51,415 bases of DNA from NCBI GenBank assembly GCA_013607775.1, contig VCAW01000040.1, positions 1 to 51,415 of the forward strand, read 5' to 3'. The notes under the pieces were generated by a model that worked only from the letters and a program-made list of their open reading frames with translations, ran no database searches and was not told where the DNA came from. Source of the stretch: Campylobacterota bacterium. Its GTDB lineage: Bacteria > Campylobacterota > Campylobacteria > Campylobacterales > Sulfurovaceae. Shown here piece after piece: positions 935-20,638 of the stretch (position 1 is the first letter of the stretch; the number at the start of each line of letters is the position of its first letter). The translations under genes and the position numbers were made by a program.

Positions 935-1967
935 CTAAAAATTAAATCTATCGTCCATAGCCAAATCACCTATCATGCCCAACGCCGAGCCTTCACCTTT
1001 ATCTGAGCCACCATACTGTGGAGCCGCTGCCAACATACGTCCAGCAAGTCTTGAGAACGGTAAAGACTGTATCCATACTTTTCCTGGGCCTCTGAGTTTT
1101 GCAAAAAAGAATCCTTCCCCACCAAAAAGCCCTGTCTTTATGCCTCCAGCCTGTTCTATCTCAAATTCTATATGCGGCTGCATTGCAACAAGACACCCAG
1201 TGTCAAGATGCATTGTTTCTCCTTCTTGAAGTTCAATCTCTTTTAGCATCCCTCCTGCATGGATAAATGCCATCCCATCACCTTCAAGCTTCTGCATAAT
1301 AAACCCCTCACCACCAAAAAGTCCAGTCAAAATTTTCTTTTGAAAATAGATACCTATAGAGACTCCTTTTGCAGCACATAAAAAAACAGTCTTTTTGGCA
1401 AATAAGTGTACCACCCATCTCTTCAAGATTCACAGGAATAATACGTCCAGGATAAGGAGCACCAAAAGCAACCGTTGCCTTATCTGTACCTGTATGGGTA
1501 AAAACTGTTGTAAATAGACTCTCACCCGTGACTAAACGCTTTCCTGCTCCCACAAGCTTATCAAACAATCCACCTGTATCCTCTTTGGAACCAGAACCAT
1601 CACCAAAAACTGTATCCATCATAATATGACTGTTTTTATACATCATTGCCCCAGCCTCAGAGATAGCACTCTCACCAGGGTCTAACTCTATCTCAACATA
1701 TTGGATGTCATTACCAAAAATAGTATAGTCTATCTCATCGGCAGCATTTAAGCTACTGCCTTGTGCACGTAATGGAGGAGAAAAAGTTGTATTGGTTGTC
1801 GTAGATGTTAATTCTGGTACTTCCACAATGGGCTTCCAAGCAGAAAACCCCTCTGTCCAGGCATATCCGTTGGCATTCTCTTGCACATACTGTAAAGCTT
1901 CAGCAGTCGATATAGAACCATATTTCTCACCACTGTCATACTCTAAAAACCATTGTGTACTCATCAT
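935..1967 (-). pseudogene. TIGR00266/AIM24 family protein with N-terminal GYF_2 (DUF4339)-like domain, split by a frameshift
   Basis: ORFs 1308..2015 and 935..1426 join if the A7 run at 1380-1386 loses one base, restoring QKDCFLCAAKGV. AIM24 motifs AEAGAMMY-like, GLFGGEGF, LRGPGKVWIQSLP. N-terminus has WFL...YG and AWTEGFSAWKPI. AAGGA RBS precedes ATGs at 1967/1964. Confidence 0.8.
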
Positions 1968-2022
1968 CACATCCTTCATATAATATTTATATATTATAAT
2001 CAGCATCCGTGTCAAAAATGTG

Positions 2023-4477: not shown

Positions 4478-7400
4478 CGATTCCGGTGTATTTAAAATAT
4501 CTACCAACAATGAACTACTTTGTGTACCATGATGCATCGTCTGAGAAGCTTTTGCTTTGTGTACAAGTTGACGACTTTTTGTACTTGCAAGATACGTAGT
4601 CATCTCTCTAGCGGGCAATGGCTTTGAGATAAAATACCCCTGCACAGCATCACAACCCAAATCACTTAATGTAGAGAGTTGAGTTTCATGTTCCACACCC
4701 TCACATACCACAGAAATATCTATATTATGACACAGACCGATTAAACCACTTACGATAGATACAGAATGAATATTGCTAGGAAAGTCAGCCATCAAAGAAC
4801 GATCAATTTTTATCAGACCAATAGGAAAATTTTGTAAATAAGATAGAGAAGAATAGCCTGTACCAAAATCATCTAATGCAATCATAAATCCTGCATTATG
4901 TAATCCATATATTGCCTCAGTAATATAAGTATATTTTTTTAATAAGGCTGTTTCTGTTAATTCAAAAACTATATCATGAGGAAAAAGACCTTCTTCTCTC
5001 ACTATTTTAACAATTTCATCTACAAGATTTTTTTCATAAAACTGAATAGCAGATAGATTAATCGATATTTTTAAGTTCGGATGTCCATTTTTTTGCCAAA
5101 TCCGTAATTGATGACATGATTTTTCTATCACCCATCGACCTATCTCTTTAATACTCCCTGCATGTTCAGCTATATTGACAAAAAGATCTGGCGATACAAG
5201 TCCTAACTCTGGATGTTTCCACCGTAAGAGTGTTTCTACTTTTTCAATGCTCCCTGTTTCCAAGGTAATATTATAGGCTGAAAATTTAGGTACAGTTCAT
5301 CTCTTTCCAATGCCAAATGTAACTGACTTTCCAACTGTAATGCTCTTTTAGCATTAATATTCATCTCTTTATTGTAAAAAAGAAATTCTCCTCTTCCTTT
5401 TTCTCGAGCATCAACCAATGCCATTTTTGCATGATTTAGTAAAGCATCAACTTCTTGGGCATCACTAGGATAGATACTTATACCTACATTTGCTGTCATA
5501 ACAATCTCATGTCCATCAATTTCTACAGGTATATTTAAGACTTGCATCATACGATATACCGCCCAAGTGATATCTGCATCATTTTGAATACTTGGAAGAA
5601 TAGAGATAAATTCACTGTCAGAAACGCGTGATAAACTAACCGCATTATTGGTATCTACCGAAGGAAGGACAGAGTCAGATAAACGGAAGGTTTCCATTAG
5701 ACGATCAGAAGCAATTTTTTTAAGTTTTCGTGCAATGTTATGCCCAAAGCATTATTTGTCATTTGAATTGTATCTATAAATATATTGAGTACAGCCAAAT
5801 GCCTTTTTTCTCTTTGTGCCAGTCTTTGTGCTTGTGTTAAACGGTCTAAGATAAGTGCATATTCAGAGTCTTCACAAATACCCAAATGATGTGTAGAATC
5901 TTCTTCCTTATCTTTCGTAGTTACTTGTTTTACAATTGAAGATACTGTTGTCTATCTTCTTTCACTTGGCATCATCTGTTTTGCATGAGAATCTATTTCT
6001 TCACTATTTTCATTATAGGCAATGACTCTATTTCGTCCTGTTTGCTTAGCTGTATAAAGTGCTTTATCTGCAAGATCTATCAGTTTATCTGCTTCCCATA
6101 CTTGATGCTCCTCAGTACAGGCAACACCAAAACTGGAAGTAACATTTAAGCCTTCATTAATCTTCCCAAAATCATAATTTTCAACTGCTACACGTATTTG
6201 TTCTGCTCTTTCAAGCGCTTTATTTAAATGAGTATTAGGAAATACTATTACAAATTCCTCACCACCATAACGACTTACAAGGTGATCTTGAGACACTTCA
6301 GATTGCAAAATATCTGCAAATGTACGTATAACCTTATCTCCTACACTATGTCCATATGTATCATTCACTGATTTAAAAAAGTCTATATCCAAAATAACAC
6401 AAGAGAGCGCACGTTCTTGTTCTCTTGCTTCACGCAATAACTGATGTAAACTTTGAAACAATGCACGTCTGTTTAATAAATTGGTTAAAGGATCATGCGT
6501 CGATAATTGTAATAGTTTTCCATTCTGACGCTCAATCTCCTCTTGACTCGTTTTTAATCGCTCCAAAATATGATTTAATTCTTTGTTTTTTCTCTCCAGT
6601 GTTGTCACATCGTCTATTGTAACAATCACACCTTTTAATTTTTGATTCGCTACTTTAATAGGTGCCACACTTATATCTAAAGTCAATATCGTATCTTGCT
6701 CTGTCTTCATTCTAAATGTTTTTGTATCAGGTATCTCTTTGGTCTCAAGTAAATAGTTCCATGGTAAACTATGTTCTCCCAATATTTTTTCTTCATTTTC
6801 ATCTTCCCAGGAGAGATGCGATAATTGTTTTCCCATTAAACGATCTTCAGATAAATGGACTTTTTCTTTAAATGCATCATTTACAAATACAATACGACCT
6901 TGCGTATCTATAATAACTAAACCTTCATTCAGAACATCTAGAGCAGACCGGACACGTTCAGGCACAACTGAACTCGGATCAAGTTCACTCAATGCCCGCT
7001 TTAAAAATAACCAATAAGCAATAAATCCAAATACTGAGATAAACAATAACATAGCCGAAAAAGATCGCGCCGTAAACATGTTACTCCAGATAGTTCCTAA
7101 AGGTACAAAACTTACTTCCAGTGTACCCCAACGTGCTGCTTTCGCATAGATAGGTACTTGTATATAATTTACAGTAGAACTATCATCTTTTTGACCTTCC
7201 CAATACATATCATGCTGACTACTTTTCATAATCACTTTATCTAACACTGTAATAAGTGCGATGGAGTTTATTTGTGTATTACGTTTTACAATAGCATCCA
7301 GTAGATGTACTGCTTGACTTAAACGTTTTTCTCTTACTTCCGCTGAAATTTGAATTGCCAATGATTCTGCCATTACTTTACGGGACTGAATCTCAGATTC

Positions 7401-7526
7401 ATTTTGGTTTGGAACAATGCCAAAAAGATCTCCCATAAGCAAAAGACTGATAGTTAACAACCATAGTCCTATAGTTATACGAAGTACAGGAGAAACTTTA
7501 GGTAAAAATCTATTCCATTTCATCAT
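4469..7526 (-). pseudogene. Membrane-bound PAS-GGDEF-(degenerate GGDEF)-EAL c-di-GMP enzyme, ~1,018 aa when repaired
   Basis: Two TM helices, PAS (ALDVLNEGLVIID), DPLTNLLNRR/DIDFFK/RYGGEEF, degenerate SDSEF domain, EAL domain (VETLLRW, FELTET, LDDFGTGYSSL, EGVE, QGY). Broken by in-frame TAG 5952-5954 and frameshifts at T7 5715-5721 and ~5265-5272. Confidence 0.88.
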
Positions 7527-8380
7527 GACTTCTCTACTTCAAAAATTTGTTCTATAGACTCATCTTCATGTGAAATCACTTCATCTTCATCTTCATCTTC
7601 ATCTGTAAATATTGCAACAGGGTCAAATTCTTTCCACATAGGCATCGTAGCAAACAAACTCGCAATCAAAGAGCCTGACCGGAACAACCAGGCAACAAAT
7701 CCGGCTGTCAAAGAAAGTGTTATTCCAGAAGCAACTTCTACAGAAAAATCATTTTCATACTGTGCTTTTTCAGCATTTTCATCCATTTCTTTATACATTT
7801 TGTCCAAATCATTATAAAAATTTTCAGATTCATGATTATTAAGTACAGAAAGGAGAGAACTATCTATATTTACAGAATCTAAAGATTCCAATTCTGCCAT
7901 GTATCGCTCAGGTAACTCACTGTATGGCTGCTGAATAACAAAAACATCATTAAGATTGTCTAAATCAATTGTATCATACTCATTAGAAACCTGCTGATCA
8001 TCTACAGCTAATTCTATATGGTCTTGTACATCCTCTTCCAATAAATCTACTGTATCTGGTCTATCTATATTGCTTCCAATACTGCTGTCAAACACTATTA
8101 TATTTTCATCAAGTGGCAGCACCTCAGAGTCTTCTCCCGATGTACCTGCTGAACTTGAAAGTGATGTCCTTACAACATCAATTGTCAAGGTCTCACTATC
8201 TATCAAGTTACCCGTACCAGAATCAGTAACAGTGACCGTCACAGCCAATAAAGAACCCGTGTAATCTGACGATGGACTCCATGTAACAATCCCTGTACTT
8301 GGGTCAATATGCATACCAGCAGCCAACGATGCACTATCAAGACTATAGGTGAGTGTATTCTCCGCACCATCAACATCTGT

Positions 8381-8743
8381 TGCAGTGGCTGTAAATGTGA
8401 GGGTAGAGAGTTCATCTACATTTTGGTTCCCAATAGGGTCAAGGATTGGCGAGGTGTTGATATCATTGACGGTAATGGTAAAGGTTTCTGAGTCTACCAG
8501 ATTGCCTGTACCAGAGTCTGTCACGGTAATGGTCACGGTTGGTGTTGTACCGCCGTCAGACTCTGTTGGTGTCCAGCTAAACACACCCGTATTGGCATCG
8601 ATACTCATCCCTGCTGCTAGAGATGTGGCATCCAAGGTGAAGGTTAAGGTATCGGCTGGGATATCTGCGTCACTTGCAGTGGCTGTAAATGTGAGGATAG
8701 AGAGTTCATCTACATTTTGGTTCCCAATAGGGTCAAGGATTGG
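8381..8743 (-). repeat. Tandem 294-bp (98-aa) Ig-like repeat units with a near-identical ~69-bp core
   Basis: 8381-8449 and 8675-8743 are almost identical and encode PILDPIGNQNVDELS[T/I]LTFTATA. Confidence 0.85.
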
Positions 8744-11249
8744 AGCATCATTCACCGGTGCTACTGCTATATCAACCACCACTTCATTTGAAGTTGTCCC
8801 AACCGAATCATCTATGGTATAGGTAAAACTATCAGAGGTAGTTTCAGAACCATCATGGGAGTAACTTACCGTCCCGTCTGCATTGACAACCAAAGAACCA
8901 TTACTCGGTCCTGAGACAATAGTAATAGATGAAACATCCAAGTCACCATTAACATCTGTATCATTTGCTGCAAGATCAAGTATATTACTCGAAGAACCTT
9001 CATCAACCGTAAAACTATCTGCCACTGCGACAGGAGGATTGTTATATGCTACAGCTAAACTCAGTGCATTGATATCTTCATTGGCAGTATCGAGTCCTAC
9101 TTCATTACCTTGCATCAATAAAACTGCATTTGCAGTAGCATTACCACTACCCGCTACTAGGGTTGTAGTAGAAACATCCAAATAAAAAACATCATTTTCT
9201 GTGACAGAAAGCGCACTGTCTCCAATACCACTTTCACTGTTGTTTAATGTCAACAATATATTACCCGATGCGAGAGATGCTCTTCCAATGACAGTATTGG
9301 ACTCTATAAGTTCCAACCCTTGTATCTGCGTACCGTTACCAATATCTGAACCTTGTATAAACAGTGTCTCTGTCCCAATAGTAGTACCTGTACCCACATC
9401 ACTGGCTTCATAGAGATAGATATTTTCATGTGAACCAGCACGGGCAGCAAGCAATGAACCTGCTGTGACTACAGTATCTCCTATGGTCGTATCTTGTTCC
9501 ACCAAAGTGAACGCATGAATCTTATCAGTACCAAAAGGATCATCTAGCAGTGTAGTAAATGTACCGCTACTGTAATCTCCTGAAACATCTGCCCTAAAGA
9601 CAACGATATCCGTGTTTTGACTCGACAGTGTACTGCTATCGCTACTGGTGAAAGTCTCATTATCCTGTGTTGCAAAGAGTATGTCTCCTGCTTGAAGATT
9701 AAATGTATTTGCACCACTTCCCATGGTGATACTTTCTGTCACATAATGCATTCCTCTGACATCTGCACTACCGTCTTGAGTAAAATCATTGAGAGAAAAA
9801 GAAATATTAAAATCACCCTCTGTAGTACCAGGTGTCGTACCTGTCTCAAAATCCAACGAAGCACCGCCAAAGCTTAAGATATTTCCAGATGTCCAGCTAT
9901 CTAAACCGTTTGCACCACTTGGAGAGTTGACATCTCCATCTGTAGATAACAATAGATCAGTATCTGTAATGGGTTTTAGCACATTGATGGTCATAGTACT
10001 GTCTGCTGCCGAATCAACCATTCCATCGTTGACACTGAAAGTAAAGCTATCATAATTACCTCCGGCAGCATCTGGTATCGGCGTAAAGGTAAGCAGACCA
10101 CTGTCGATATCGGCAGCAGTGATCACTTGATCAAGGGTCACATCGGTACCAGAAAGCTGTAATGTACCCACTGTTTCCAATGTTGTGATCTTCACGCTAT
10201 TGAGAGGATCGCCATCTACATCACTGTAATTAAAATCAGATGTCACAAAAATGTAGGTACTATTTTTTCCTATACTCAGTGTATTGTCTGTACTTGTGGG
10301 AGCATCATTTATCGCTACCATAGTAACAATAGAAACCAAATTTGGCGAAGAGGTATCAACACCACCATTAAGTGTACCACCACTATCTGTTATACTACTA
10401 ATTGTAAATACACGGTCTGAAGTCGTTGGGTTTTCACTACTGTTTCTATAATTAATACTTCCACCAAGGTTTGCTATATTAGCTGGTGTTGCACCAAGTG
10501 TTGTGAGGGTTATAGTTGCCGTTGTTCCTACAAGACTCACGCTATAGTCATACCCATTGGTTGCAGATGTACCACTAACCAAGTCGGCTAAAGTAAACGT
10601 AGTACCATCAAGAGTGACTAGTTCATAGTTTCCATCTGTCACATTACTCACAGTAAACACTAATTCATCTATGCTTTGCCCAGCTTCTATAGTATCAGGT
10701 GTAACAAAACCAAAAAGTTGTACATCTGCATCCCCTTCAGTAAAAGTAGGATTATGTGATAAAGCTGTCAATGTCGGTGCATCGTTTACAGGTGTAATAA
10801 TCACCGTTGTACTACCAGTCACAGACAATGCCCCACCAGAGCCTTGTGCACCACTGTTCCCATCATCAAACGTCCAGTCTATTTGTGCTGAAGTATCTGG
10901 AGCATCACTGCTATTTGCGTAGGCTAAAGATTGTAATGTCTCATTGACCAAAGCTTGGGTGGCATTGGTATTAAAAGTTAAAACCAATGTTCCTGCACTA
11001 TTTGTAGTGATTACACCTATGTCTGTACCAGATACAGTGAGGTTTCCATTTTCAGTAAGAGTTGCGAGGTTTCCTGTTGATGAAAATGTGTCATCACTGT
11101 TTGCTGTACCAGTACGTTCTAAAGTGAGTGTTGCGCCATAAAAATTATCTGCCGCACTTAGTTCAGCATCAAAAATAGTAACGTCACTATCTAAAACAAC
11201 GGGGCTACCACCTTCTATAAAGGTTGGAGTAGCATTCAGAAAATCTGAT

Positions 11250-12450
11250 TCAAAAGTAGTGTCTAAAGTTCCATCTACATTGTAACGAACTAGTACAAAG
11301 TCAAAATCGCCCTCAGTTTCACTAAAACCAGAAATAAGGTACTTCCCATCAGCTTGAATCGTAATATCATGAGCTTGTTCTACTCCAGTACCTACAGCAA
11401 GAGTTATGATTCCATCATCACTAAAGCTAGTATCGAGGGTACCATCACTGTTGTAACGGACTATTGCGAAGTCACCATCTGTTCCATTATTGCTTTTACC
11501 TACAAGTATAATTTTCCATCATCTTGTAGTACTGCACTATAAGCAGTGTCATTATTACCTATATTTGTAGTAAGTTTTCCATCACCACTAAAAGTAGTAT
11601 CTAAACTTCCATCTGTGTTGTATCGAAGTAACGCAAAATCATTATCGACTCCATTAAAACTTGTTCCAGATACAAGTATCTTTCCATCAGGTTGTACAAG
11701 AACTGTCTGTCCAATGTCATCTCCAATGCCAAAGTCTGTAGTTACTATTCCACTACCATTAAAGTCAGTATCTAATGTTCCATCTGTGTTATATCTAAGA
11801 AGAGCTATGTCCCAGTCTGTACCATTAGAAGCATAACCTGTTACTAAAATCTTATCATCAACTTGTAAGCTAAGAGATAGGGCTACATCACTATTTGCAC
11901 TGATATCTGTATTTACTATCCCATCGCTATCAAAACTACTGTCTAAGCTGCCATCACTATTGTAACGGATGAGAGCAAAATCGGTATTAGTGCCGTTAAA
12001 ACTATATCCAGCGAGAAGAATTTTTCCATCACTCTGTAACGCAATAGAGTAACTCTCATCATTACCTGCTGTAATATCGGTAGTTACTATACCATCACTA
12101 TCAAAACTACTGTCGAGAGTACCATCGCTGTTGTAACGCATAAGAAGAAATTCATCACTTGTACCATTAGAACTAAATCCAGAAACAAAAAATTTACCAT
12201 CTGTTTGTAACGTAATATCATAAGCTATATCATTATTTACTGTAATATCGGTAGTTACTATACCATTGGTTCCAAAACTTGTATCTAAGCTTCCATCTGT
12301 ATTGTAACGGGTAATAGCAACCTCGTTACTCGTACCATTAAAACTGTATCCAGAAACGAGAACCTTACCATCGTCTTGCAAAACAAGTGCGTAAGCGCTA
12401 TCTTCACTTGAACCAATATCTGTCGTAACTATCCCATCTCCTACACCAAA
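11250..12450 (-). repeat. About seven delta-60-type repeats (probable beta-propeller) in the adhesin
   Basis: Recurring LQxDGKILxxG...RYN[T/S]DG[S/T]LD[T/S][S/T]F...G units of ~55 aa. Confidence 0.85.
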
Positions 12451-15400
12451 CGTCGGTGCATCATTCACAGCATCTACTGTAATAGTAACCGTATCTGTAT
12501 CAACCCCCAGTGATGCATCCATAATCTCAGCTATTTCTGCTGCAGTTAATGCACTATCATAGACACGTGCATCATCTATCATACCATCGAAGAAAAATTG
12601 TGTTTCATCAGAGTCAGCATGACGACCAATAGTTGAGTTAGTTAGTGTTCCTCCTGCTATAGCAGGAGCGGTATAACTAATAGAGTTCGTCACTGTAGCA
12701 TTGGCAACTACCACACCATCTAAGTATAAAGTTTGTTCATTATTCGTGTCATCAAATGTATAAGCAACATGATGCCAACCTGTTCCAGATATCGCCGTAT
12801 TGCTCTGCAATGTAATCCAGTCAGTATCGTCCCCGTTGATATTTCCTTGATAAAATATCCCCTGCAATCCATCACTTGTATCCCAGTCACCTGCTCTTAA
12901 TATAACTGAATCACCTAATGAGATGACCTCACCTACTTCAGCACCGGTAAAGTTAATCCATGCAGACAGTGTGACATCGGTGGGTTCACCATATAGACCG
13001 TTTATTTCTACTCCGTCACTCAAGGTAGTATCATCAAAACTAAGTACATCCCCTCTCGTTACGTCATTGACCTGCGTTGCTCCTACTACAGTACCATCAT
13101 AAGAGATACCCGCACCGCTATCTTCCCCGAGATTGGTCAAGTTGTCAAATGTATAAGCACCTATAAGATTGGTGTCATCATGGGTCTCGATATGAAGTGA
13201 TACCGAACCATTAAAGTCTGCATCGGGAGTAAAACTCAAACCATCTAGCGCCGTGCTGATATCGGCTAAGGTACCTGTGAAAGTCATAGTACTACTTACG
13301 TTACTGCCACTGACAAACGTAAGTCCTGTCGTTCCCGATAAATTTAAAATACCATCATTGACACTAAGACTTGTTTCCAGCAGACCTACACCTACATCCG
13401 CATCGGAGATAGAGATAAGGTTTCCATTGGCTGTATTAAATACCAATGCAGTATCTTCATCTGTATGCTCTACAGGTGTATATGCAAGCTGCACATCATC
13501 AAAATCAACATTGGCGACACTTGCAGGGTCACCAATATTATAAAACTCTATAGTTAAGGCATCTCCGTAATTCGCAGAGTATGTTGCCAATGTAGAAGCA
13601 TCAAGGTTTAGTGTTGCTTCCACAAAAGAGTCATTGGCAGGGTCAAAATCCGCATTGGAGACAGAACCCAAAAGCTGACTTCCTCCATACAAACGCATCT
13701 CCCAACCACTGGCATCTTCTGCTAGAGATTCATCTCCTACCATAGCTGTAAGCGTATAGCTTCTGTCTGCTTCAAAGGTTTCTGTAAGTACCTGTGAAAT
13801 AGTTGCTCCAGCAGTACTTGCATCAATATAAGCAACATTTTCTCCATCAATGACTGAGGGATCACTATATGCAGGAGAGTCAATATTCCATACACCCGTA
13901 GAAGCAGTCGTTGTCCATCCACTAATGGTATCCATAGTCACATCACCATCAGCCAAAACATCTGCTTCAAAACTTGGGTTGGTGATGGCGACTGATACTG
14001 TTTGTTGCAACTGTATCTCCGGTGGTGTATCGGCTGCCTGAAGCTCCCATGCAAGTTCAAGACCATCTCCCCCAAGACCTTCTGTACTCCCTACTGCCGC
14101 AGTCACATCAAAAGTCAAGGTTGTATAGGTACCGTTCACCTGCACAGAGCCTGCAGCAGCACCAAGTGATGGGTCTGCATCTGCCTCACTCGTATTAGAA
14201 ACAACATCTCCAACCGTACGATAAAAACTGTCTGGTGTCACATTTAAATGACCCACACCTGCCAGTTGCGTTAAAGTAGCACCTGCTGTTGTCACTGTCC
14301 ATTCAGAAGAATTAGATAACCCACCCCCCAGATCCACCAAGTCTATCAATATGAAGAATAGGATTTACCACTGCGGTATCAAAAGTGAAAGTAACCGTAA
14401 CCGTTTGTGCATCATCTGAAGCTTCAGGGGTATCATCCCAAAGTATTTCCATGTAAACAGAGTCTGCACCCTGCACATAAGCATCAGAGAAAAATACATT
14501 GGTCGTCAGGTTGTCGGCAGTGACATTTTGTACAATTGTGCCTGCTGGCGCAGAAAATGACATATCGACCGTCACAGGTAAAATAGTTGCCGTGGTTGTA
14601 CTGCTATAAGGTTCCGTTGTCGTCCATGCTCCAGTAAGATTTTCAACCGTTAGAAGTTCATTCCATGCATTCTGAACCGCATCGGAGACTACTACAGAAG
14701 TGTCAATCACACCTACTGAATACTCTAAATCCCAATCTCCGTCTAAAAGTGCATTTCCTGTTTTATCTGTTGAGCTGGCGACATCAGCACCTGTCAAGGT
14801 TGCCAAAGTATCCGTTAAGGTTACCCCCATCACTATCTAAAGAGACATCACATCCATACAGTAAGATATCTGCATCTTCTGAAAGTGCATCTGACCAAGA
14901 AGATATGGCCTCACTGTTCTCTAAAATATCATCATTTTCCAACCATGTATCACCCAATGAAAAAGCGCCATCACTCCCATGGGAGATAACATGAATAGCA
15001 TCCAAATCCGTATAATTAGACAATATCTCTGAAACCTGTTCCACTCCATTCTCTTCGGCATCAAGTACTACCACTTCAATGGTTCTTGTCTCATCACTCG
15101 GCTCTAGCCCATCAATAAGTTCTTGGTAGTCTGTAACATCAGAATTTACCAAGACAAGTTCTGTACGTGGTTCATCTGTTGTGTCACTCACCTCTAATAA
15201 AGAAGTGTCATCTACAATGTCTATAGATGTTTCATCTTGCACAAGTACAACTTCATCAACGGTTAGCTCTATATCAGTTGTCTCTACAGTAGGAGTATTT
15301 TCTACTGTATCATCTTGAATCAGTACTGTATTTTCTCCCGAAAGTTCTGTATCTATGGTCTCTTCAGTTTCAGGTGTTTCATCTAAAACTTCAACTTCAG

Positions 15401-15723
15401 GGGATTCACTATCGTTTGCAGTAGTATTAGTCTTACTTTCAGTTCCTTCTGACTCTGGACTATCCTCAGTAGAAGCTGCATCTTCTGTCATTGATGTGGT
15501 TTCTGTGTCATTAGAGACATCTATTGTACTGTTTGCTGTCTCTTCTTCATACGTTGTCTGTGCATTTTCTACAAGGGTATCACCCTCTGCAGTAATGTCC
15601 TGTACATTATCTGTCGGGATAATCACATCTGCACCAGGAAGATCTGCTGCCATCATAAAACGTGGTTCCAATACTTCAATTAAAACTGAAGGTCGCTTTA
15701 ATTTTTTTGCAGGCAGAATCTTT

Positions 15724-16599
15724 TTAGTCATGGCGTGACGTTACTCCCTGCTTAGAAGATAATGCATCTTTTTCAGTGAACTTCAAATCACAACGCAAGC
15801 CTGCAGCTATTTTATACTCAGGGTTGGGTAAAAGCAAACGTACACCAAAGGTACCACTTGCTGCATCTATCACTTCATCTACCTGTGAAACTTTCACTTC
15901 CCAACCTTTGCCAGCATTTTTATCTGTACATACTCTAGCATGCATCCCTACTTTAATAGTATTTTTTTGTGCCACGGGTACGATGAGTTCAACATATAAA
16001 GGATCAAGCTGTGCTAAACGTATCACAGGATCATCATCTATATACTCACCTATAGTTTTAAAACGTTCCATCACAACACCATAAAAAGGTGCATGTATCG
16101 TTCTGTGTGCAAGTCTGGCTTTGGCTTGTTTTAACTTATTCTGGGCAAGCATCTGTTTTTCTTTAGCCTGCAAGAGTTTAATTTCTGCAAGCTGAGTAGT
16201 TACCTTGGCTTTGTCATAATCGTGAAGAGAAAACGCTTTGTCATCATATGCATGTTTGGCTCGATCTTCTTCTCTTTTGGCATAAGTAAGATTTACTTTT
16301 TATAACGATATTTCCGAAATATCTGACGCTTGTTTACTTGCTAAGGCAACAGTTGCCTGTTCAACCTCATCATCCAAGACAGCAATAACAGCACCTTTTT
16401 CAACAAAGTCATTACGGTCAACCATAATACGATGGATAACCCCGCGGTCATTAGACCCAAGATCTGCCACATTACTTGGTATGACAACACAATCAAACGT
16501 ATCTGTTGTCATATTCATATCAGCCATACTTAAAGAAGGTACGATGACTAACAATATAGCTATTTTACGATACAAACGTATTAAAAAAATCTTATGCAT
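15724..16599 (-). pseudogene. HlyD/RND-type periplasmic adaptor (membrane fusion protein) with a nonsense mutation
   Basis: ORFs 16300..16599 and 15724..16173 share a frame, separated by TAA at 16300-16302. Lipoyl half-motifs GVIHRIMVDRNDFVEKG and TIHAPFYGVV; DAASGTFGVRL. Confidence 0.87.
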
Positions 16600-16669: not shown

Positions 16670-18808
16670 TCATTTATGATAAAAATGTCTCAAAAAGAGT
16701 TGATTAAAGCGCAATGCCAACTGTTTTGCTACAGATAATTTTCCATGATTTAAACGTACATACACGCGTCCACCAATCTGACTTTTATGTATATTTTTTG
16801 GCATGACCAAATCTATCTCAAAGACAGGTGTTAACAATTTTGTTGCACTTTTATCCCTTCGGTCTACAGGGAATATGCCTCCGCCAGCTGTACCCAGTAC
16901 GGCACTTGCCAAATGTCCTGTTGCTTGAGGGGTTTGACGGATAATCTCACTTCTATAGGTCTGCGATATGTCATTGGCAAACTTACAGTCAACCTCCGTC
17001 TCATAACTTTCTAACAACCCTATACGTGCTTGGGGTACCACTGCTTTGATCATGAGTTTCTTATCATTAATAATGTACCCTAAAGTATCCCCTTGATGCA
17101 CATATTGCCCTCTCATATCTTCTGTACTAGAGGCTATAAATTTTCCCTTACTCATACTTTTTATCTCTAAATCATTTATCTTCTGTTTCAACGCCTTATA
17201 TTGATCATTTGCTGCATCTATATCATCTTTAAGCATTGCGGCTTTCGTCCGATTCTTTCGCTCTTCAGAAAGATATTCTGCTTGCAACTCATTCAGATGA
17301 TATTTGAGTGCTTTATACTCCGACAACAAGGTATCATCATGTAGCTGAATTAAACTCTGATTTACATCAACTTGTGTATTGGAAGGAACAAATACTTTTT
17401 CGACAAAACCCGATGTGCCTGCAGTTACCTGTGCATCACCATCTGTCCAAACTACCCCTTCTGTATAGGTAATCAGCGACACCGGTATGGAAAGCAATAT
17501 AACGATAATAACACTCCCAAACAACACAACCCCAATAGCCCTTGCGCGATGCAAACTAAGTGATTCATTAAAGAGAAGGAATTTTATACCTTTAATCAAA
17601 GGTATAATCAACTGCATAGTCAACGTCCATGTCGCGAGTGCTACACCTATCACTAAAAAGTTATCTACCAAATAAAGTGCGATGCTAAACATAATCATAA
17701 AACGGTATACCGGTGCAGCAAAACCATAAAAAAGAAACCATTTCTATTCCCCCACTGCAGTAACCGGGCTTTGTACATTTGAGATCTTTAAAATATACTT
17801 CTGTATCAAGTAATAATAATAACGCTTGGCACGTGTAGCAAGATTGGGGATTTCCAACCAATCTTCAAAAACAAAATAACCATCATAACGCATGAGTGGA
17901 TTTCCATTAAACAACAGCGTAGAAAAAGTAGCAATAATAATAACATTAAGTGCCATATCCTTTACGATACCAGGTTCTACAGCCAACCATAAAAAAAGTG
18001 CCAACGAGGCAAGAAAAAGTTCTACAAAAATACCTGCTGCACCTACAGCCATGCGTCTCCACTTATTGCCAAAGGTATATGAATCTGTAGCATCTACATA
18101 AGGTACAGGCATAAATATCAGTAGATTAATGCCCATTTCACTAACTTCTCCACCCCAAGTTTTTAATGCAAGCCCATGACCAAGTTCATGCATTGCCTTA
18201 ATAAAAGGGTAGATTAACCACATTGCCAATAACTGTCCAGAAGAAATATCCAGTGACAACATTGCATTTTTCAATTCACCTGCATGTGTCAACCCTAGTA
18301 ACAGTGCAAGCATAAGAGTCAACGCCCAAATCCAAAGTCCCCACGTAGAAAAAAGTATTTTTCCTAAAGGGGCCAATGCATTTAACAACTTATCGGGATT
18401 TAATAAAGGAAGTTTAATTGAAAGTGGGTTCATATAGGAACGTTGACGTTTTTTCTTTTTTGAAGCTTTGTATTGATGAAACACATCTTGTGCATTCACC
18501 GGTAAACCACCTTTAAGGACTTCTGCAGCATCAAGTTGCCCCAATAGACCTATAACATCTTCTTGTGTAAAAGGATAGTCATTTTGTGTTTCATTCGCAT
18601 GATCAAGTATCTCTTCTAAAGTCAGGTCACCATCAAAACGTCCCAAGATTGCATACGCATGTTCATTAAATCGTAAATATTGTTTTGAGGAATGATCATG
18701 TAAGACATACCAACGCTCGCCACGATACACATGAGGGATAACCTCAACATGTCCACGTAATTGCGGTTTTAAATGTGCAACATACTGCCATAATGGATGT
18801 GTAGTCAT
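16670..18808 (-). pseudogene. M50 (site-2) metalloprotease fused to an N-terminal PqqD/RRE-like domain and a C-terminal HlyD-like adaptor, with a nonsense mutation
   Basis: HELGH zinc motif and NGNPLMRYDGY motif among TM helices. ORFs 17744..18808 and 16670..17698 share a frame, separated by TAG at 17744-17746. C-terminal half has lipoyl/coiled-coil adaptor pattern (SGFVEKV, GQYVHQGDTLG). Confidence 0.85.
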
Positions 18809-18818
18809 TTAAATACTC

Positions 18819-20638
18819 CTACAGTCCCAAAGACCAAAACCATAAACGGATACGATCCAATAGTGTATGAGACAGTACCCACAGCACATTTTCCTCACCT
18901 ACATTTACTTTAGCAATACCTTGCATACCTGGTTTAAGTTTTGTCTCATTGCCATCAGTAAGTTTGGCTTCAACTCGAAAATAGTTACCGCCATTGGCAA
19001 CAGTAGAAATAGGAATAATACGTGAAATAGATATATCCAATGCATCATATGGTAAACCTACCAAACGTAAAGAGCCTTCCTCTTTTACTGTCAATTTTGA
19101 GATATCTTCATCTTCCACATTCAAAATAACCCTATAATTACCAAGAGGAGAAACTTTAAAAAGTGCCTCTCCCTTCTCAACAGGTGCCCCCAAAGGCTGA
19201 CTCAAATCACCCGATACAACAATACCACTAAAAGGTGCTTTTATAGTACTTCTCTCCACCTTTTCCTCTACAAGGTCTATGCGTGCATTCACTTGAGAAA
19301 TTTGTGCAGAGAGTATACTTACTTTTGCACGTTCTCGCAGTGCCAATGCTTCTCTGTACTCCTTTTTGATCTTCCCACGTTCACTTACAAGCTTACGGTA
19401 TTCCAGTTTGAGATCATGGTCTGCCAACTGTACCATCACTTCTCCTGCATCAACCTTTCCACCTGCACGTACATTTGCCTTTTCAATAAATCCATCATAA
19501 GGTGCCACAATCACTTGCTGTATTGCACCTTCTAATGTAGATTTTGCATAGATATAATAAGGTATTTTCACAATAAGCAGTGTGATGAGCAGTGTCAATA
19601 TACTAGCTAAAAGAAGTTTGAACCTAAAATGCCCTTTCCCAAATAGCCATCGTAACTTCTGTTTTATATTTTGAAATACTTTTGTAAACAAAGTATCTTC
19701 CTCTTTTAGCTTAAAGGCTAAAACTGAACTTAACAACTCACTGCTTCGTTGGAGTACTTTATATTCATCATTTCTAAATGGTTTGTTTTTAGACCGCATC
19801 AATAAAAGTGTGGCAAAAACTGTTTCCTCTTTTTCTAAAGGAATCGTCATTATTGAAGCATCCTCATTAAGTCTAGACAATGTCTGATGTTTTTGTATCA
19901 CACAAGACGCTATATCATCTACTTTAGGATATATAATACTTTGTTTCTGATCAGAAGCTTCTTCCATAGCAAGCTCCATATCTCGTACCATAGAGGTACG
20001 CGAATCAAAACGAAGTTGATGAGAAAGTCCCAAAATATGTACATTTAAACCATCAACTTCACCCAGACCAACCCGTGTACAATGAAAATACTCCGCAAAA
20101 AAATTGGAAATGTGATACGCTGTCAACGCCATAGGTTCATCTTTCAAGCCTATTTCTATCATACTATGAATAAATTGATTTACATCTCCCATCTCTTCAG
20201 AGCTTGCTTCCAATGTAGACTCAAGCCAGGTAACACCCCACTGAAACAATTGTAAAACTGCTTTTTTCTGTTCTTCTGAACGTACTGCCTGTAAAAAACA
20301 ACCGCACCTATAACTTCGTTATTTTTATGTAAAGGTAGTGTAATAGTATCACATACCATAGCACTGCTATCTAATGTACACGTTAATTTTGATACCATAC
20401 TCTTACGACCAGACACGACATCTCGTGCCAGTTCATAAAGTTTAGTATCCATACCCTCCCAACTACTCTCAGAAGACCACTTTGTGACCATTTCTAAAAT
20501 ATCATCATTTTGTTCATTTTGTAAAAAAACTGCACTAATTCTCACATCAGAAATCATTTTACATTGCCATATAAGCCAACGAGATGCAACAGAAGAGAAA
20601 GAGTGTAATGAAATATCTTCAGAAGTAATTTATGACAT
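18819..20638 (-). pseudogene. HlyD-family adaptor with N-terminal cytoplasmic GAF-like domains, disrupted
   Basis: GAF-like segments (TITLPL...IGAVV; MEEASDQ...IMTIPL), TM helix, then VAPYDGFI and IKAPFSGIVVSGDL, KPGMQG. Frameshift at A6 20293-20298. Probable ATG at 20638 after AAGGA is followed by in-frame TAA at 20630-20632. Confidence 0.8.

What the first reader, a model, noticed from the sequence alone, without database searches (positions are those of the whole stretch)
18510..18808. PqqD/RRE-like domain on the M50 protease: RiPP-style leader recognition applied to a giant protein?
Seen: the first ~100 aa (WYVLHDHSSKQYLRFNEHAYAILGRFDGDLTLEEILD...QEDVIGLLGQL) show the three-strand/three-helix pattern of PqqD-family domains, ahead of HELGH and NPLMRYDG. 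Established: RiPP recognition elements bind leader peptides by beta-augmentation. Inference: with no small precursor peptide visible in the locus, the likely ligand is the adhesin's N-terminal LEPR-XLL leader.
Basis: partly seen in the sequence, partly recalled or inferred. Interest (0 to 1): 0.82.

Follow-up and report, generated by a model that had tools for sequence, protein, structure and literature searches.

The report
Leader-reading protease for giant-protein export
This stretch encodes a small domain, predicted to have the fold that peptide-antibiotic pathways use to grip leader peptides and fused to a membrane protease, which likely reads a short tag at the start of giant surface proteins so that they would be trimmed and exported; in this strain the gene and its four operon neighbours are all broken by stops or frameshifts.

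Summary
Residues 1-99 of the minus-strand M50 gene model as three strands and three helices, and the best structural matches are lasso-peptide RREs (Z 10.4, 10.2). The gene is an RRE-M50-HlyD fusion in the operon GAF-HlyD, RRE-M50-HlyD, HlyD, LEPR-leader giant protein, GGDEF-EAL. The ligand claim rests on genomic evidence: protease and leader co-occur in 53 of 301 genomes, leader alone in 5; leader subtype follows protease clade; the leader has the spacing of the daptide leader motif. No binding or cleavage experiment exists. The transport cassette is in print (Kamneva 2015) without the RRE or a substrate. New here: its SecA paralogue is dispensable, and the giant's DUF4347 has a caspase-like fold, a rival cutter. 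This scan reached the same reading on other genomes (19 notes). Verdict: new variant of a known kind.

The parts
18497..18790 (-). PqqD/RRE-like domain (residues 7-104; core strands 21-48, helices 49-94)
   Evidence: Model; VIA-align range 7-104, 5v1u Z 10.4; Pfam PqqD E 3.3e-4; P15, R29, W33, D38, R46, G60, L92 invariant in 100 of 100 rows
16670..18808 (-). Whole RRE-M50-HlyD gene, 712 codons, interrupted once
   Evidence: One frame with 1 TAG, 97% identical to the intact 712-aa P0028; intact 715-aa orthologue in G003
18176..18190 (-). HELGH zinc-binding motif of the M50 core
   Evidence: HExxH in 120 of 120 homologues
17879..17902 (-). NPLMRYDG motif (third zinc ligand in site-2 proteases; role recalled)
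   Evidence: NPxxxxDG in 117 of 120 homologues
17744..17746 (-). In-frame TAG at codon 355, cutting off further membrane segments and the HlyD part
   Evidence: Present in run X1 (depth about 1,000); sense codon in X2, X3, X4
16670..17743 (-). C-terminal half: membrane segments plus HlyD-type periplasmic adaptor
   Evidence: Pfam HlyD_D23 E 2.7e-6, HlyD_3 E 8.2e-5
18819..20638 (-). GAF-HlyD gene; broken by TAA at codon 3 (20630-20632) and a frameshift near 20292
   Evidence: Pfam GAF_3, HlyD_3; two frames against the G003 protein; the frameshift is shared by X1 and absent in X2-X4; the codon-3 stop is absent in X1, X2, X3 and may be peculiar to the assembly
15724..16599 (-). Third HlyD-type adaptor with a hydrophobic N-terminus; broken by TAA at 16300-16302
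   Evidence: Pfam HlyD_D23 E 4.4e-16; stop in X1, absent in X2-X4; hydropathy
15642..15731 (-). N-terminal leader of the giant protein: basic residues 1-17, then IEVLEPRFMMAAD (18-30); candidate ligand
   Evidence: NF012209; E22 and R24 invariant in 62 of 62 leaders; no signal-peptide h-region, best 19-residue hydropathy 0.97
14651..15158 (-). DUF4347 domain, split by the frameshift near 14824; caspase/CHAT-like fold with invariant His-Gly and Cys in relatives
   Evidence: Pfam; alignment of 16 relatives; model of the L012 domain and Foldseek
7523..15731 (-). Giant adhesin-like gene (about 2,736 codons if whole): DUF4347, HpiC1-like, LamG, delta-60 repeats, cadherin/Ig repeats; frameshifts near 14824, 14324, 11512
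   Evidence: all three breaks in X1; open in X3/X4 where covered; X2 shares only 11512
7616..7741 (-). Conserved hydrophobic segment near the C-terminus of the giant protein
   Evidence: Best 19-residue hydropathy 1.5; similar stretch in L012, L019, L026
4469..7526 (-). Membrane PAS-GGDEF-GGDEF-EAL gene, start overlapping the giant gene's stop; broken by TAG at 5952-5954 and indels near 5742 and 5268
   Evidence: Pfam; 1,077-aa intact relative L043
3062..4477 (+). TolC-family gene, convergent on the operon; membership uncertain
   Evidence: TIGR01844 223.5 bits against cut-off 225.15; no tblastn hit to it in 80 related loci

Best explanation
The stretch is the N-terminal domain of an RRE-M50-HlyD fusion, predicted to have the leader-binding RRE fold, which in intact relatives likely binds the LEPR leader of giant proteins and would hand it to the fused site-2 protease for removal during export; in this strain the gene is interrupted by a stop and the whole operon is broken. 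Steps: (1) shown: fold match, intact zinc motifs, fusion to an HlyD adaptor, operon with two more adaptors and the leader-bearing gene. (2) Inferred: the cytoplasmic RRE grips the hydrophobic-E-x-L-E-P-R stretch as an added strand. (3) Inferred by analogy with the daptide peptidase MpaP: the cut falls just after this stretch (R24/F25 here) or in the following hydrophobic residues. (4) Inferred: the three adaptors and a TolC-type pore carry the giant chain out N-terminus first, with the M50 membrane domain in the place of an ABC transporter. The energy source is unresolved: a SecA paralogue where present, otherwise housekeeping SecA or ion gradient. (5) Shown: this copy is decaying as a unit.
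For: Fold. The domain is as conserved as the protease (57% against 60% mean identity; adaptor 40%; 119-120 of 120 homologues). The M50 part matches the daptide RRE-peptidase model (E 7.5e-42), whose role in leader removal is stated in bioRxiv 2023.03.08.531785 (passages); that leader motif, ELExMEAP, has the same hydrophobic-E-x-[LM]-E spacing. Co-occurrence: order-level sample of 301 genomes, both 53, protease only 26, leader only 5 (weak hits), neither 217; planctomycete phylum sample of 81, leader 8, all 8 among the 17 with the protease, 0 of 64 without; own genus, leader over cut-off in 3 of 116, all 3 among the 4 with a close protease; 42 of 50 protease-bearing genomes carry the leader. 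In 5 of 8 'protease only' genomes examined, a divergent leader missed by the HMM sits on the adjacent giant gene. Leader subtype follows protease clade: 13 of 13 D[GA]A-type leaders go with one clade, 0 of 32 with the other. All five genes decay together in a genome of ordinary coding density (88.6%).
Against: The fold is shared by non-RiPP proteins at the same Z (8hkr 10.1, 9s2t 8.6, 2xdv 8.4), and PMC7470986 (passages) notes helix-turn-helix look-alikes and vestigial RREs. Co-occurrence ties the leader to the cassette, not to this domain; genomes are kin and cassettes move as blocks, so the odds ratio (88) overstates. The subtype match is one deep split, and that clade was picked by low score. 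The daptide likeness is carried by the M50 part, not the RRE, and the daptide leader mutants were tested on MpaB, not the peptidase. A second candidate protease, DUF4347, follows the leader in many giants. For the LEPRxLL giants of Chlorobium, bioRxiv 2026.03.19.712371 proposes C-terminus-first export by SapC/TolC/HlyD (passages). Two weak PF07595 hits occur in protease-negative planctomycetes. No ATPase belongs to this operon.
Confidence: 0.55

Rival explanations
1. The cassette exports LEPR proteins, but another part reads the leader (the M50 core, the GAF domains or SecA); the RRE-like domain is a structural or partner-binding winged helix.
For: Non-RRE winged helices match equally well; sub-threshold Pfam score; 4 of 8 N-terminal domains from this family gave no PqqD-type NCBIfam hit counting the M50-only control, 3 of 7 true N-terminal domains; all genomic evidence is at cassette level.
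Against: The two best matches are leader-bound RREs; the same architecture is a leader peptidase in daptides; surface-type residues D38 and R46 are kept across both clades (D38 30 of 32 and 13 of 13).
Confidence: 0.2
2. The giant protein removes its own leader with its DUF4347 domain; the fusion recognises or channels the substrate but its M50 site cuts something else or nothing.
For: DUF4347 follows the leader, has His-Gly and Cys invariant in 16 of 16 and matches SAVED-CHAT (TM 0.54, E 1.8e-4), legumain, a C11 protease and caspases. Several such proteases cut after Arg (recalled).
Against: DUF4347 was found in 11 of 80 loci while the leader was seen in 18; the L060 giant has none in 2,805 residues; HExxH is kept in 120 of 120 homologues. 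Flavodoxins also appear among the Foldseek hits.
Confidence: 0.1
3. The fusion is a signalling protease: it cuts a membrane segment (the giant's C-terminal hydrophobic stretch or the GGDEF-EAL sensor) to control c-di-GMP, and export goes by another route.
For: The GGDEF-EAL gene is translationally coupled here and follows the cassette in L012, L019, L043, L066, in the last two without a giant gene between; conserved hydrophobic C-terminal stretch; GAF domains in the operon.
Against: GGDEF hits in only 5 of 80 loci, the C-terminal stretch in 2-3; three HlyD adaptors and OEP neighbours (L060, L155, L199) point to transport; it does not explain the tie to the N-terminal leader.
Confidence: 0.1
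4. It is a true RiPP peptidase-exporter for a small precursor peptide that was overlooked.
For: Best NCBIfam hits are RiPP peptidases (NF041824, NF058609); halogenase, radical SAM and 2OG-oxygenase genes occur in 3-5 of 80 loci. ORFs under 70-90 aa were not clustered.
Against: Both hits are far below cut-off (159 of 300; 43 of 225); no modifying enzyme is conserved; this operon has no room for a precursor between its genes except short spacers; a genome-wide scan for the motif gave 6 hits, only the giant's near the locus.
Confidence: 0.04

Closest known systems
Secondary SecA_DEAD / Peptidase_M50-HlyD / GAF-HlyD / HlyD (+/- OEP) locus of Kamneva et al. 2015 (PMC4452313)
   Same: Same three adaptor-bearing genes; no ABC transporter; M50 proposed there as the membrane pore (section 17 read).
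   Different: No SecA paralogue in this genome; the paper's main text has no PqqD or LEPR (0 occurrences) and names no substrate. Its supplements were not read.
Daptide leader peptidase MpaP/DapP (NF041824; bioRxiv 2023.03.08.531785)
   Same: RRE fused N-terminally to an intramembrane site-2 protease; similar leader spacing.
   Different: Score 159 against cut-off 300; extra membrane segments and an HlyD adaptor; candidate substrate about 2,700 residues, not a short peptide; no modifying enzymes.
Lasso-peptide RREs TbiB1 (5v1u), 6jx3; PqqD (5sxy)
   Same: Three-strand, three-helix fold, Z 10.4, 10.2, 8.5.
   Different: 18-22% identity; fused to a membrane protease-adaptor; no RiPP cluster.
Peptidase-containing ABC transporters with HlyD and TolC (recalled)
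   Same: Logic of N-terminal leader recognition and removal coupled to tripartite export.
   Different: No ABC domain, no C39 peptidase, no double-glycine leader; a zinc protease in the membrane instead.
LEPR-XLL domain (NF012209) and PF07595
   Same: The giant's N-terminus matches both (17.4 bits; PF07595 E 0.0054).
   Different: These are annotations of the motif; the papers found that name it were not seen to assign it a receptor (one read in passages, four in listing only).

Membership tests
RRE / PqqD superfamily | Three-strand, three-helix winged-helix fold | tested here: met
   (Z 10.4, rmsd 2.5, 83 of 84 residues)
RRE / PqqD superfamily | Pfam PF05402 gathering score | tested here: not met
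   21.4 bits against 23.4; P0028 20.3 bits
RRE / PqqD superfamily | Binds a leader peptide as an added beta-strand | not testable with these tools
   Needs a binding assay or a structure
RRE / PqqD superfamily | RiPP precursor and modifying enzymes in the cluster | tested here: not met
   None in this operon; none conserved among ORFs of 90 aa or more in 80 loci
Daptide peptidase MpaP (NF041824) | RRE N-terminal to a site-2 protease | tested here: met
Daptide peptidase MpaP (NF041824) | Curated score cut-off | tested here: not met
   159 against 300
Daptide peptidase MpaP (NF041824) | Short precursors and MpaBCDM-type enzymes nearby | tested here: not met
Peptidase M50 / site-2 protease | HExxH and NPxxxxDG motifs in a membrane domain with the S2P fold | tested here: met
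   RseP Z 9.9, SpoIVFB Z 9.7, 3b4r Z 9.0
Peptidase M50 / site-2 protease | Proteolytic activity | not testable with these tools
   Needs an assay
Kamneva 2015 SecA_DEAD-associated module | M50-HlyD, GAF-HlyD and HlyD genes together | tested here: met
Kamneva 2015 SecA_DEAD-associated module | Secondary SecA_DEAD protein | tested here: not met
   One SecA_DEAD match, the 883-aa housekeeping type, in a genome 97.6% complete; one in each of 4 congeners
Type I secretion / peptidase-containing ABC transporter | ABC transporter in the operon | tested here: not met
   None in the operon; ABC ATPase hits anywhere in the flanks of 7 of 80 loci
Type I secretion / peptidase-containing ABC transporter | Membrane fusion protein and TolC-type pore | tested here: inconclusive
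   Three adaptors met; TolC nearby but convergent and not shown to belong
Type I secretion / peptidase-containing ABC transporter | RTX nonapeptide repeats or double-glycine leader on the substrate | tested here: not met
   0 GGxGxD repeats in the four pieces; leader has no GG site
LEPR-XLL domain protein (NF012209) | Motif over cut-off near the N-terminus of a large repeat protein | tested here: met
   Residues 17-32, 17.4 bits against 17; 20.1 bits

The most novel reading that the evidence does not exclude
The RRE-M50-HlyD fusion is the receptor, leader peptidase and inner-membrane core of a separate secretion system for giant proteins, spread over several phyla, in which LEPR-XLL is the export signal, a RiPP recognition module works on proteins of thousands of residues, and no dedicated ATPase is required because the SecA paralogue is an optional accessory.
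Probability: 0.4. Interest if true: 0.88.

Novelty: new variant of a known kind. Interest (0 to 1): 0.66.

Why it matters
How bacteria export proteins of 2,000 to over 15,000 residues that lack signal peptides and RTX repeats is an open question, and LEPR-XLL is an annotated motif with no receptor found in my searches. A leader-RRE pair makes it testable with a 30-residue peptide and a 100-residue domain. It would also extend RREs, used as markers of small peptide natural products, to protein secretion. The SecA-free forms found here bear directly on the energy source proposed in 2015. This particular copy is a pseudogene, so work should use an intact relative such as P0028 or the cultured hosts of L012 or L019.

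Tried and rejected
Complex prediction of residues 1-110 (alignment A1) with leader residues 6-38 (A2): no answer, scores 0.23 and 0.20 against a mark of 0.32, controls not folded; neither for nor against. Foldseek of the 354-residue model gave no match at E 0.001; weaker rows were site-2 proteases and RREs. Sequencing-run search: no RNA holder listed. Genuine split gene or stop-codon readthrough: rejected; the family is one 707-727-aa protein, three runs have a sense codon there, and the other breaks are TAA stops and frameshifts. Assembly error: rejected for the breaks that X1 shares, although X1 may be the source sample; not rejected for the codon-3 stop of the GAF-HlyD gene. Genome-wide decay: coding density 88.6% (crude ORF count). 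Secondary SecA elsewhere in this genome: not found. PF07595 in planctomycetes: 1 of 81 at E 1e-4 and 5 of 81 at E 0.005, too insensitive to decide. The ESM Atlas gave no answer for the giant's C-terminus. A Pfam scan of all 100 rows of A1 was not obtained, so the share of members with a PqqD hit is not known. L077's motif hit was dropped as a chance match in a short antisense frame (19 rows to 18). Left out of the tree: L156, L169, L170, L179, L190-L192 and three adjacent-leader loci whose protease ORF was not in the main cluster. Paper searches that found no link between RRE, M50-HlyD and LEPR; subscription journals are largely outside the library.

Full report
The observation. Pfam gives PqqD at residues 34-97 (E 3.3e-4, under cut-off) and Peptidase_M50 at 205-306. 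An AlphaFold2 model from 100 aligned sequences has three strands (21-28, 31-38, 43-48) and three helices (49-55, 64-73, 82-94). Among 48,161 solved chains the best matches are the leader-bound lasso RREs 5v1u (Z 10.4, rmsd 2.5, 83 of 84) and 6jx3 (Z 10.2); nine or more further RRE-bearing RiPP enzymes follow, but so do non-RiPP winged helices (8hkr Z 10.1, 9s2t 8.6, 2xdv 8.4). The membrane part matches RseP, SpoIVFB and the archaeal site-2 protease (Z 9.0-9.9). The fold is therefore real and RRE-like; fold alone does not give function (PMC7470986, passages).

The gene and operon. The 354-aa ORF and the next 342-aa ORF are one 712-codon frame with a TAG at codon 355. A search with the intact G003 orthologue returned 5,314 relatives among 7,997 candidates; of the best 120, all have HExxH, 117 have NPxxxxDG, and P0028 is 97% identical and whole. 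Mean identity to the window's protein is 57% for the RRE, 60% for the M50 core and 40% for the HlyD part. The minus-strand operon is GAF-HlyD, RRE-M50-HlyD, a third HlyD adaptor, a giant gene (leader, DUF4347, LamG, delta-60, cadherin/Ig repeats, hydrophobic C-terminal stretch) and a PAS-GGDEF-EAL gene, with overlapping stops and starts; a TolC gene converges on it. The nearest titled relatives are Sulfurovum. The gene is rare in the genus: close copies in 4 of 116 genomes.

This copy is broken. Run X1 (labelled mollusc metagenome, depth about 600-1,000, possibly the source) agrees with the window at the M50 TAG, the TAA in the third adaptor, the frameshifts near 20292, 14824, 14324 and 11512 and the breaks in the GGDEF-EAL gene. 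X3 and X4 (one study, about 94% alike) are open at these places where they cover them and the tables show them. X2 (another study, over 99% alike) lacks most breaks, shares 11512 and has its own one-base deletion at 18556, codon 85, inside the RRE. One further stop (codon 3 of GAF-HlyD) is in none of the three runs covering it. Crude coding density is 88.6%, so the operon is decaying as a unit, partly independently in two sister populations. The truncated protein would keep RRE and both zinc motifs, but its partners and substrate are broken too.

Neighbourhoods. In the best 80 of 574 loci from genome contigs, GAF-HlyD was found in 79, a SecA-like gene in 61, the third adaptor in 53, DUF4347 in 11, an ABC ATPase in 7 and GGDEF in 5; a leader-bearing large ORF was in view in 18 (many contigs are short). 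Twelve loci lack SecA with at least 1 kb in view downstream, 7 are too short to tell. Of the 11 genomes behind those twelve, 7 have only housekeeping SecA and 4 have the paralogue elsewhere; controls with the paralogue in the locus were detected (completeness not given; G061 may duplicate a genus genome and is not independent). This genome (97.6% complete), 4 congeners and 6 genomes of a distant clade also have none. The SecA paralogue is thus accessory.

Is the leader the ligand? The giant's N-terminus is the only NF012209 hit in the genome. Sixty-two leaders share a basic region of variable length, then hydrophobic-E-x-L-E-P-R-x-L-L-S-A-D, with E22 and R24 invariant; there is no h-region and no RTX repeat. 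NF012209 rang in 0 of 14 control genomes at these thresholds and in 42 of 50 protease-bearing genomes (50 of 79 handles given). In 301 genomes of the order of G064: both 53, protease only 26, leader only 5, neither 217; close-clade proteases 36 of 42, distant 17 of 37. Of 8 'protease only' genomes examined, 5 had a divergent leader on the adjacent giant gene and 3 had no giant N-terminus in view. In 81 planctomycete-phylum genomes the 8 with the leader are all among the 17 with the protease. In the genus the 3 with the leader are among the 4 with a close protease; the fourth contig ends before the giant gene. Kin and block transfer inflate these counts. Leaders fall into two subtypes, and the D[GA]A subtype goes with one protease clade (13 of 13; 0 of 32 in the other) in trees of RRE, M50 and HlyD parts alike; this is a single split and that clade was picked by score, so it is consistent with coupling, no more.

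Mechanism. The closest characterised architecture is the daptide peptidase: an RRE fused to a site-2 protease that removes a leader with the motif ELExMEAP, in which Leu(-7) and Met(-4) are required by the RRE of MpaB (bioRxiv 2023.03.08.531785, passages; supplements not seen). The LEPR leader has hydrophobic residues at the same spacing (I18, L21). NF041824 matches residues 16-337 (E 1.8e-46, below cut-off), mostly through the M50 part. I infer that the RRE grips this stretch as an added strand (mode recalled from RRE structures), that the protease cuts at or just after R24, and that the adaptors and a TolC pore carry the chain out. None of these steps was shown. Rivals: another part reads the leader; DUF4347, whose model matches SAVED-CHAT, legumain, a C11 protease and caspases and which keeps His-Gly and Cys in 16 of 16, cuts it, though many leader-bearing giants show no DUF4347; or the protease serves c-di-GMP signalling.

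What is known. PMC4452313 (methods part, section 17 and passages read; supplements not read) describes the M50-HlyD, GAF-HlyD, HlyD and SecA_DEAD locus as type I secretion-like and proposes M50 as the pore, with no mention of PqqD or LEPR and no substrate. bioRxiv 2026.03.19.712371 (passages) notes LEPRxLL on two Chlorobium giants, says they lack known transport signals, proposes C-terminus-first export, and has 0 occurrences of M50. PMC10885120 (passages) lists M50 RiPP peptidases; PMC13723633 (passages) mentions DUF4347 without a protease role. Eight searches found no paper linking the three. This scan's earlier notes reach the same reading on other genomes (19 notes, 8 shown); they are not independent evidence, and several treat the SecA paralogue as core, which my counts do not support.

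Verdict. Observation confirmed; interpretation partly supported. It works like a leader peptidase-coupled tripartite exporter, but is not a member of the daptide, PCAT or RTX type I families, and lacks the SecA of the 2015 module. New variant of a known kind; best explanation 0.55; interest 0.66.

Noticed in passing
window 14651-15158; L012:13866-14399: DUF4347 models as a caspase/CHAT-like fold with an invariant His-Gly and Cys: a candidate cysteine protease inside many giant adhesin-like proteins.
   Followed up: partly
L155-L170, L193-L204: A distant clade of the cassette (TolC, adaptor, shorter GAF-like adaptor, RRE-M50-HlyD) with D[GA]A-type leaders and no SecA paralogue in 6 of 6 genomes tested; NF012209 misses several of its leaders.
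   Followed up: partly
L193:9101-11826, L194-L197, L201: A GNAT acetyltransferase, two or three phage tail-collar proteins and DUF6916 sit between the protease and the giant gene.
   Followed up: no
L008:12354-14195, L010:7590-9098, L012:12168-13565: In several SecA-free loci the third adaptor carries a C-terminal SPOR (peptidoglycan-binding) domain, absent from the window's copy.
   Followed up: no
window 7616-7741; L012, L019, L026: Conserved hydrophobic C-terminal stretch of mid-sized LEPR-DUF4347 proteins, followed by an acidic tail and, in the window, L012 and L019, by a membrane GGDEF gene; no Pfam or NCBIfam hit.
   Followed up: partly
L043:13257-16487, L066:13096-16410: The cassette is followed directly by the PAS-GGDEF-EAL gene with no giant gene between; G068 has leader hits elsewhere.
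   Followed up: no
loci L014-L085 (clusters 5, 8, 11, 14, 15): SapC (12 loci), DUF3467 (6), tryptophan halogenase-like (5), radical SAM (3) and 2OG-Fe oxygenase (3) recur near SecA-bearing cassettes.
   Followed up: no
window 935-2015 and 98-922: Two overlapping minus-strand ORFs look like one frameshifted gene, outside the operon; the ORF after them may be truncated.
   Followed up: no
window 8459-12749, 4717-4931, 10656-10663, 19742-19771: Run X2 has a joint skipping about 4.3 kb of the giant gene, and X1 and X2 show the same 25-base loose end at several places in the operon, as from an insertion element in part of the population.
   Followed up: no
L171:377-15578 (G178): The congener's giant gene is also in many frames; decay or assembly error was not told apart.
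   Followed up: no
G089, G531, G551: Some planctomycete genomes carry 9-21 leader-bearing proteins of ordinary size with one protease gene, as expected of a general export signal.
   Followed up: no
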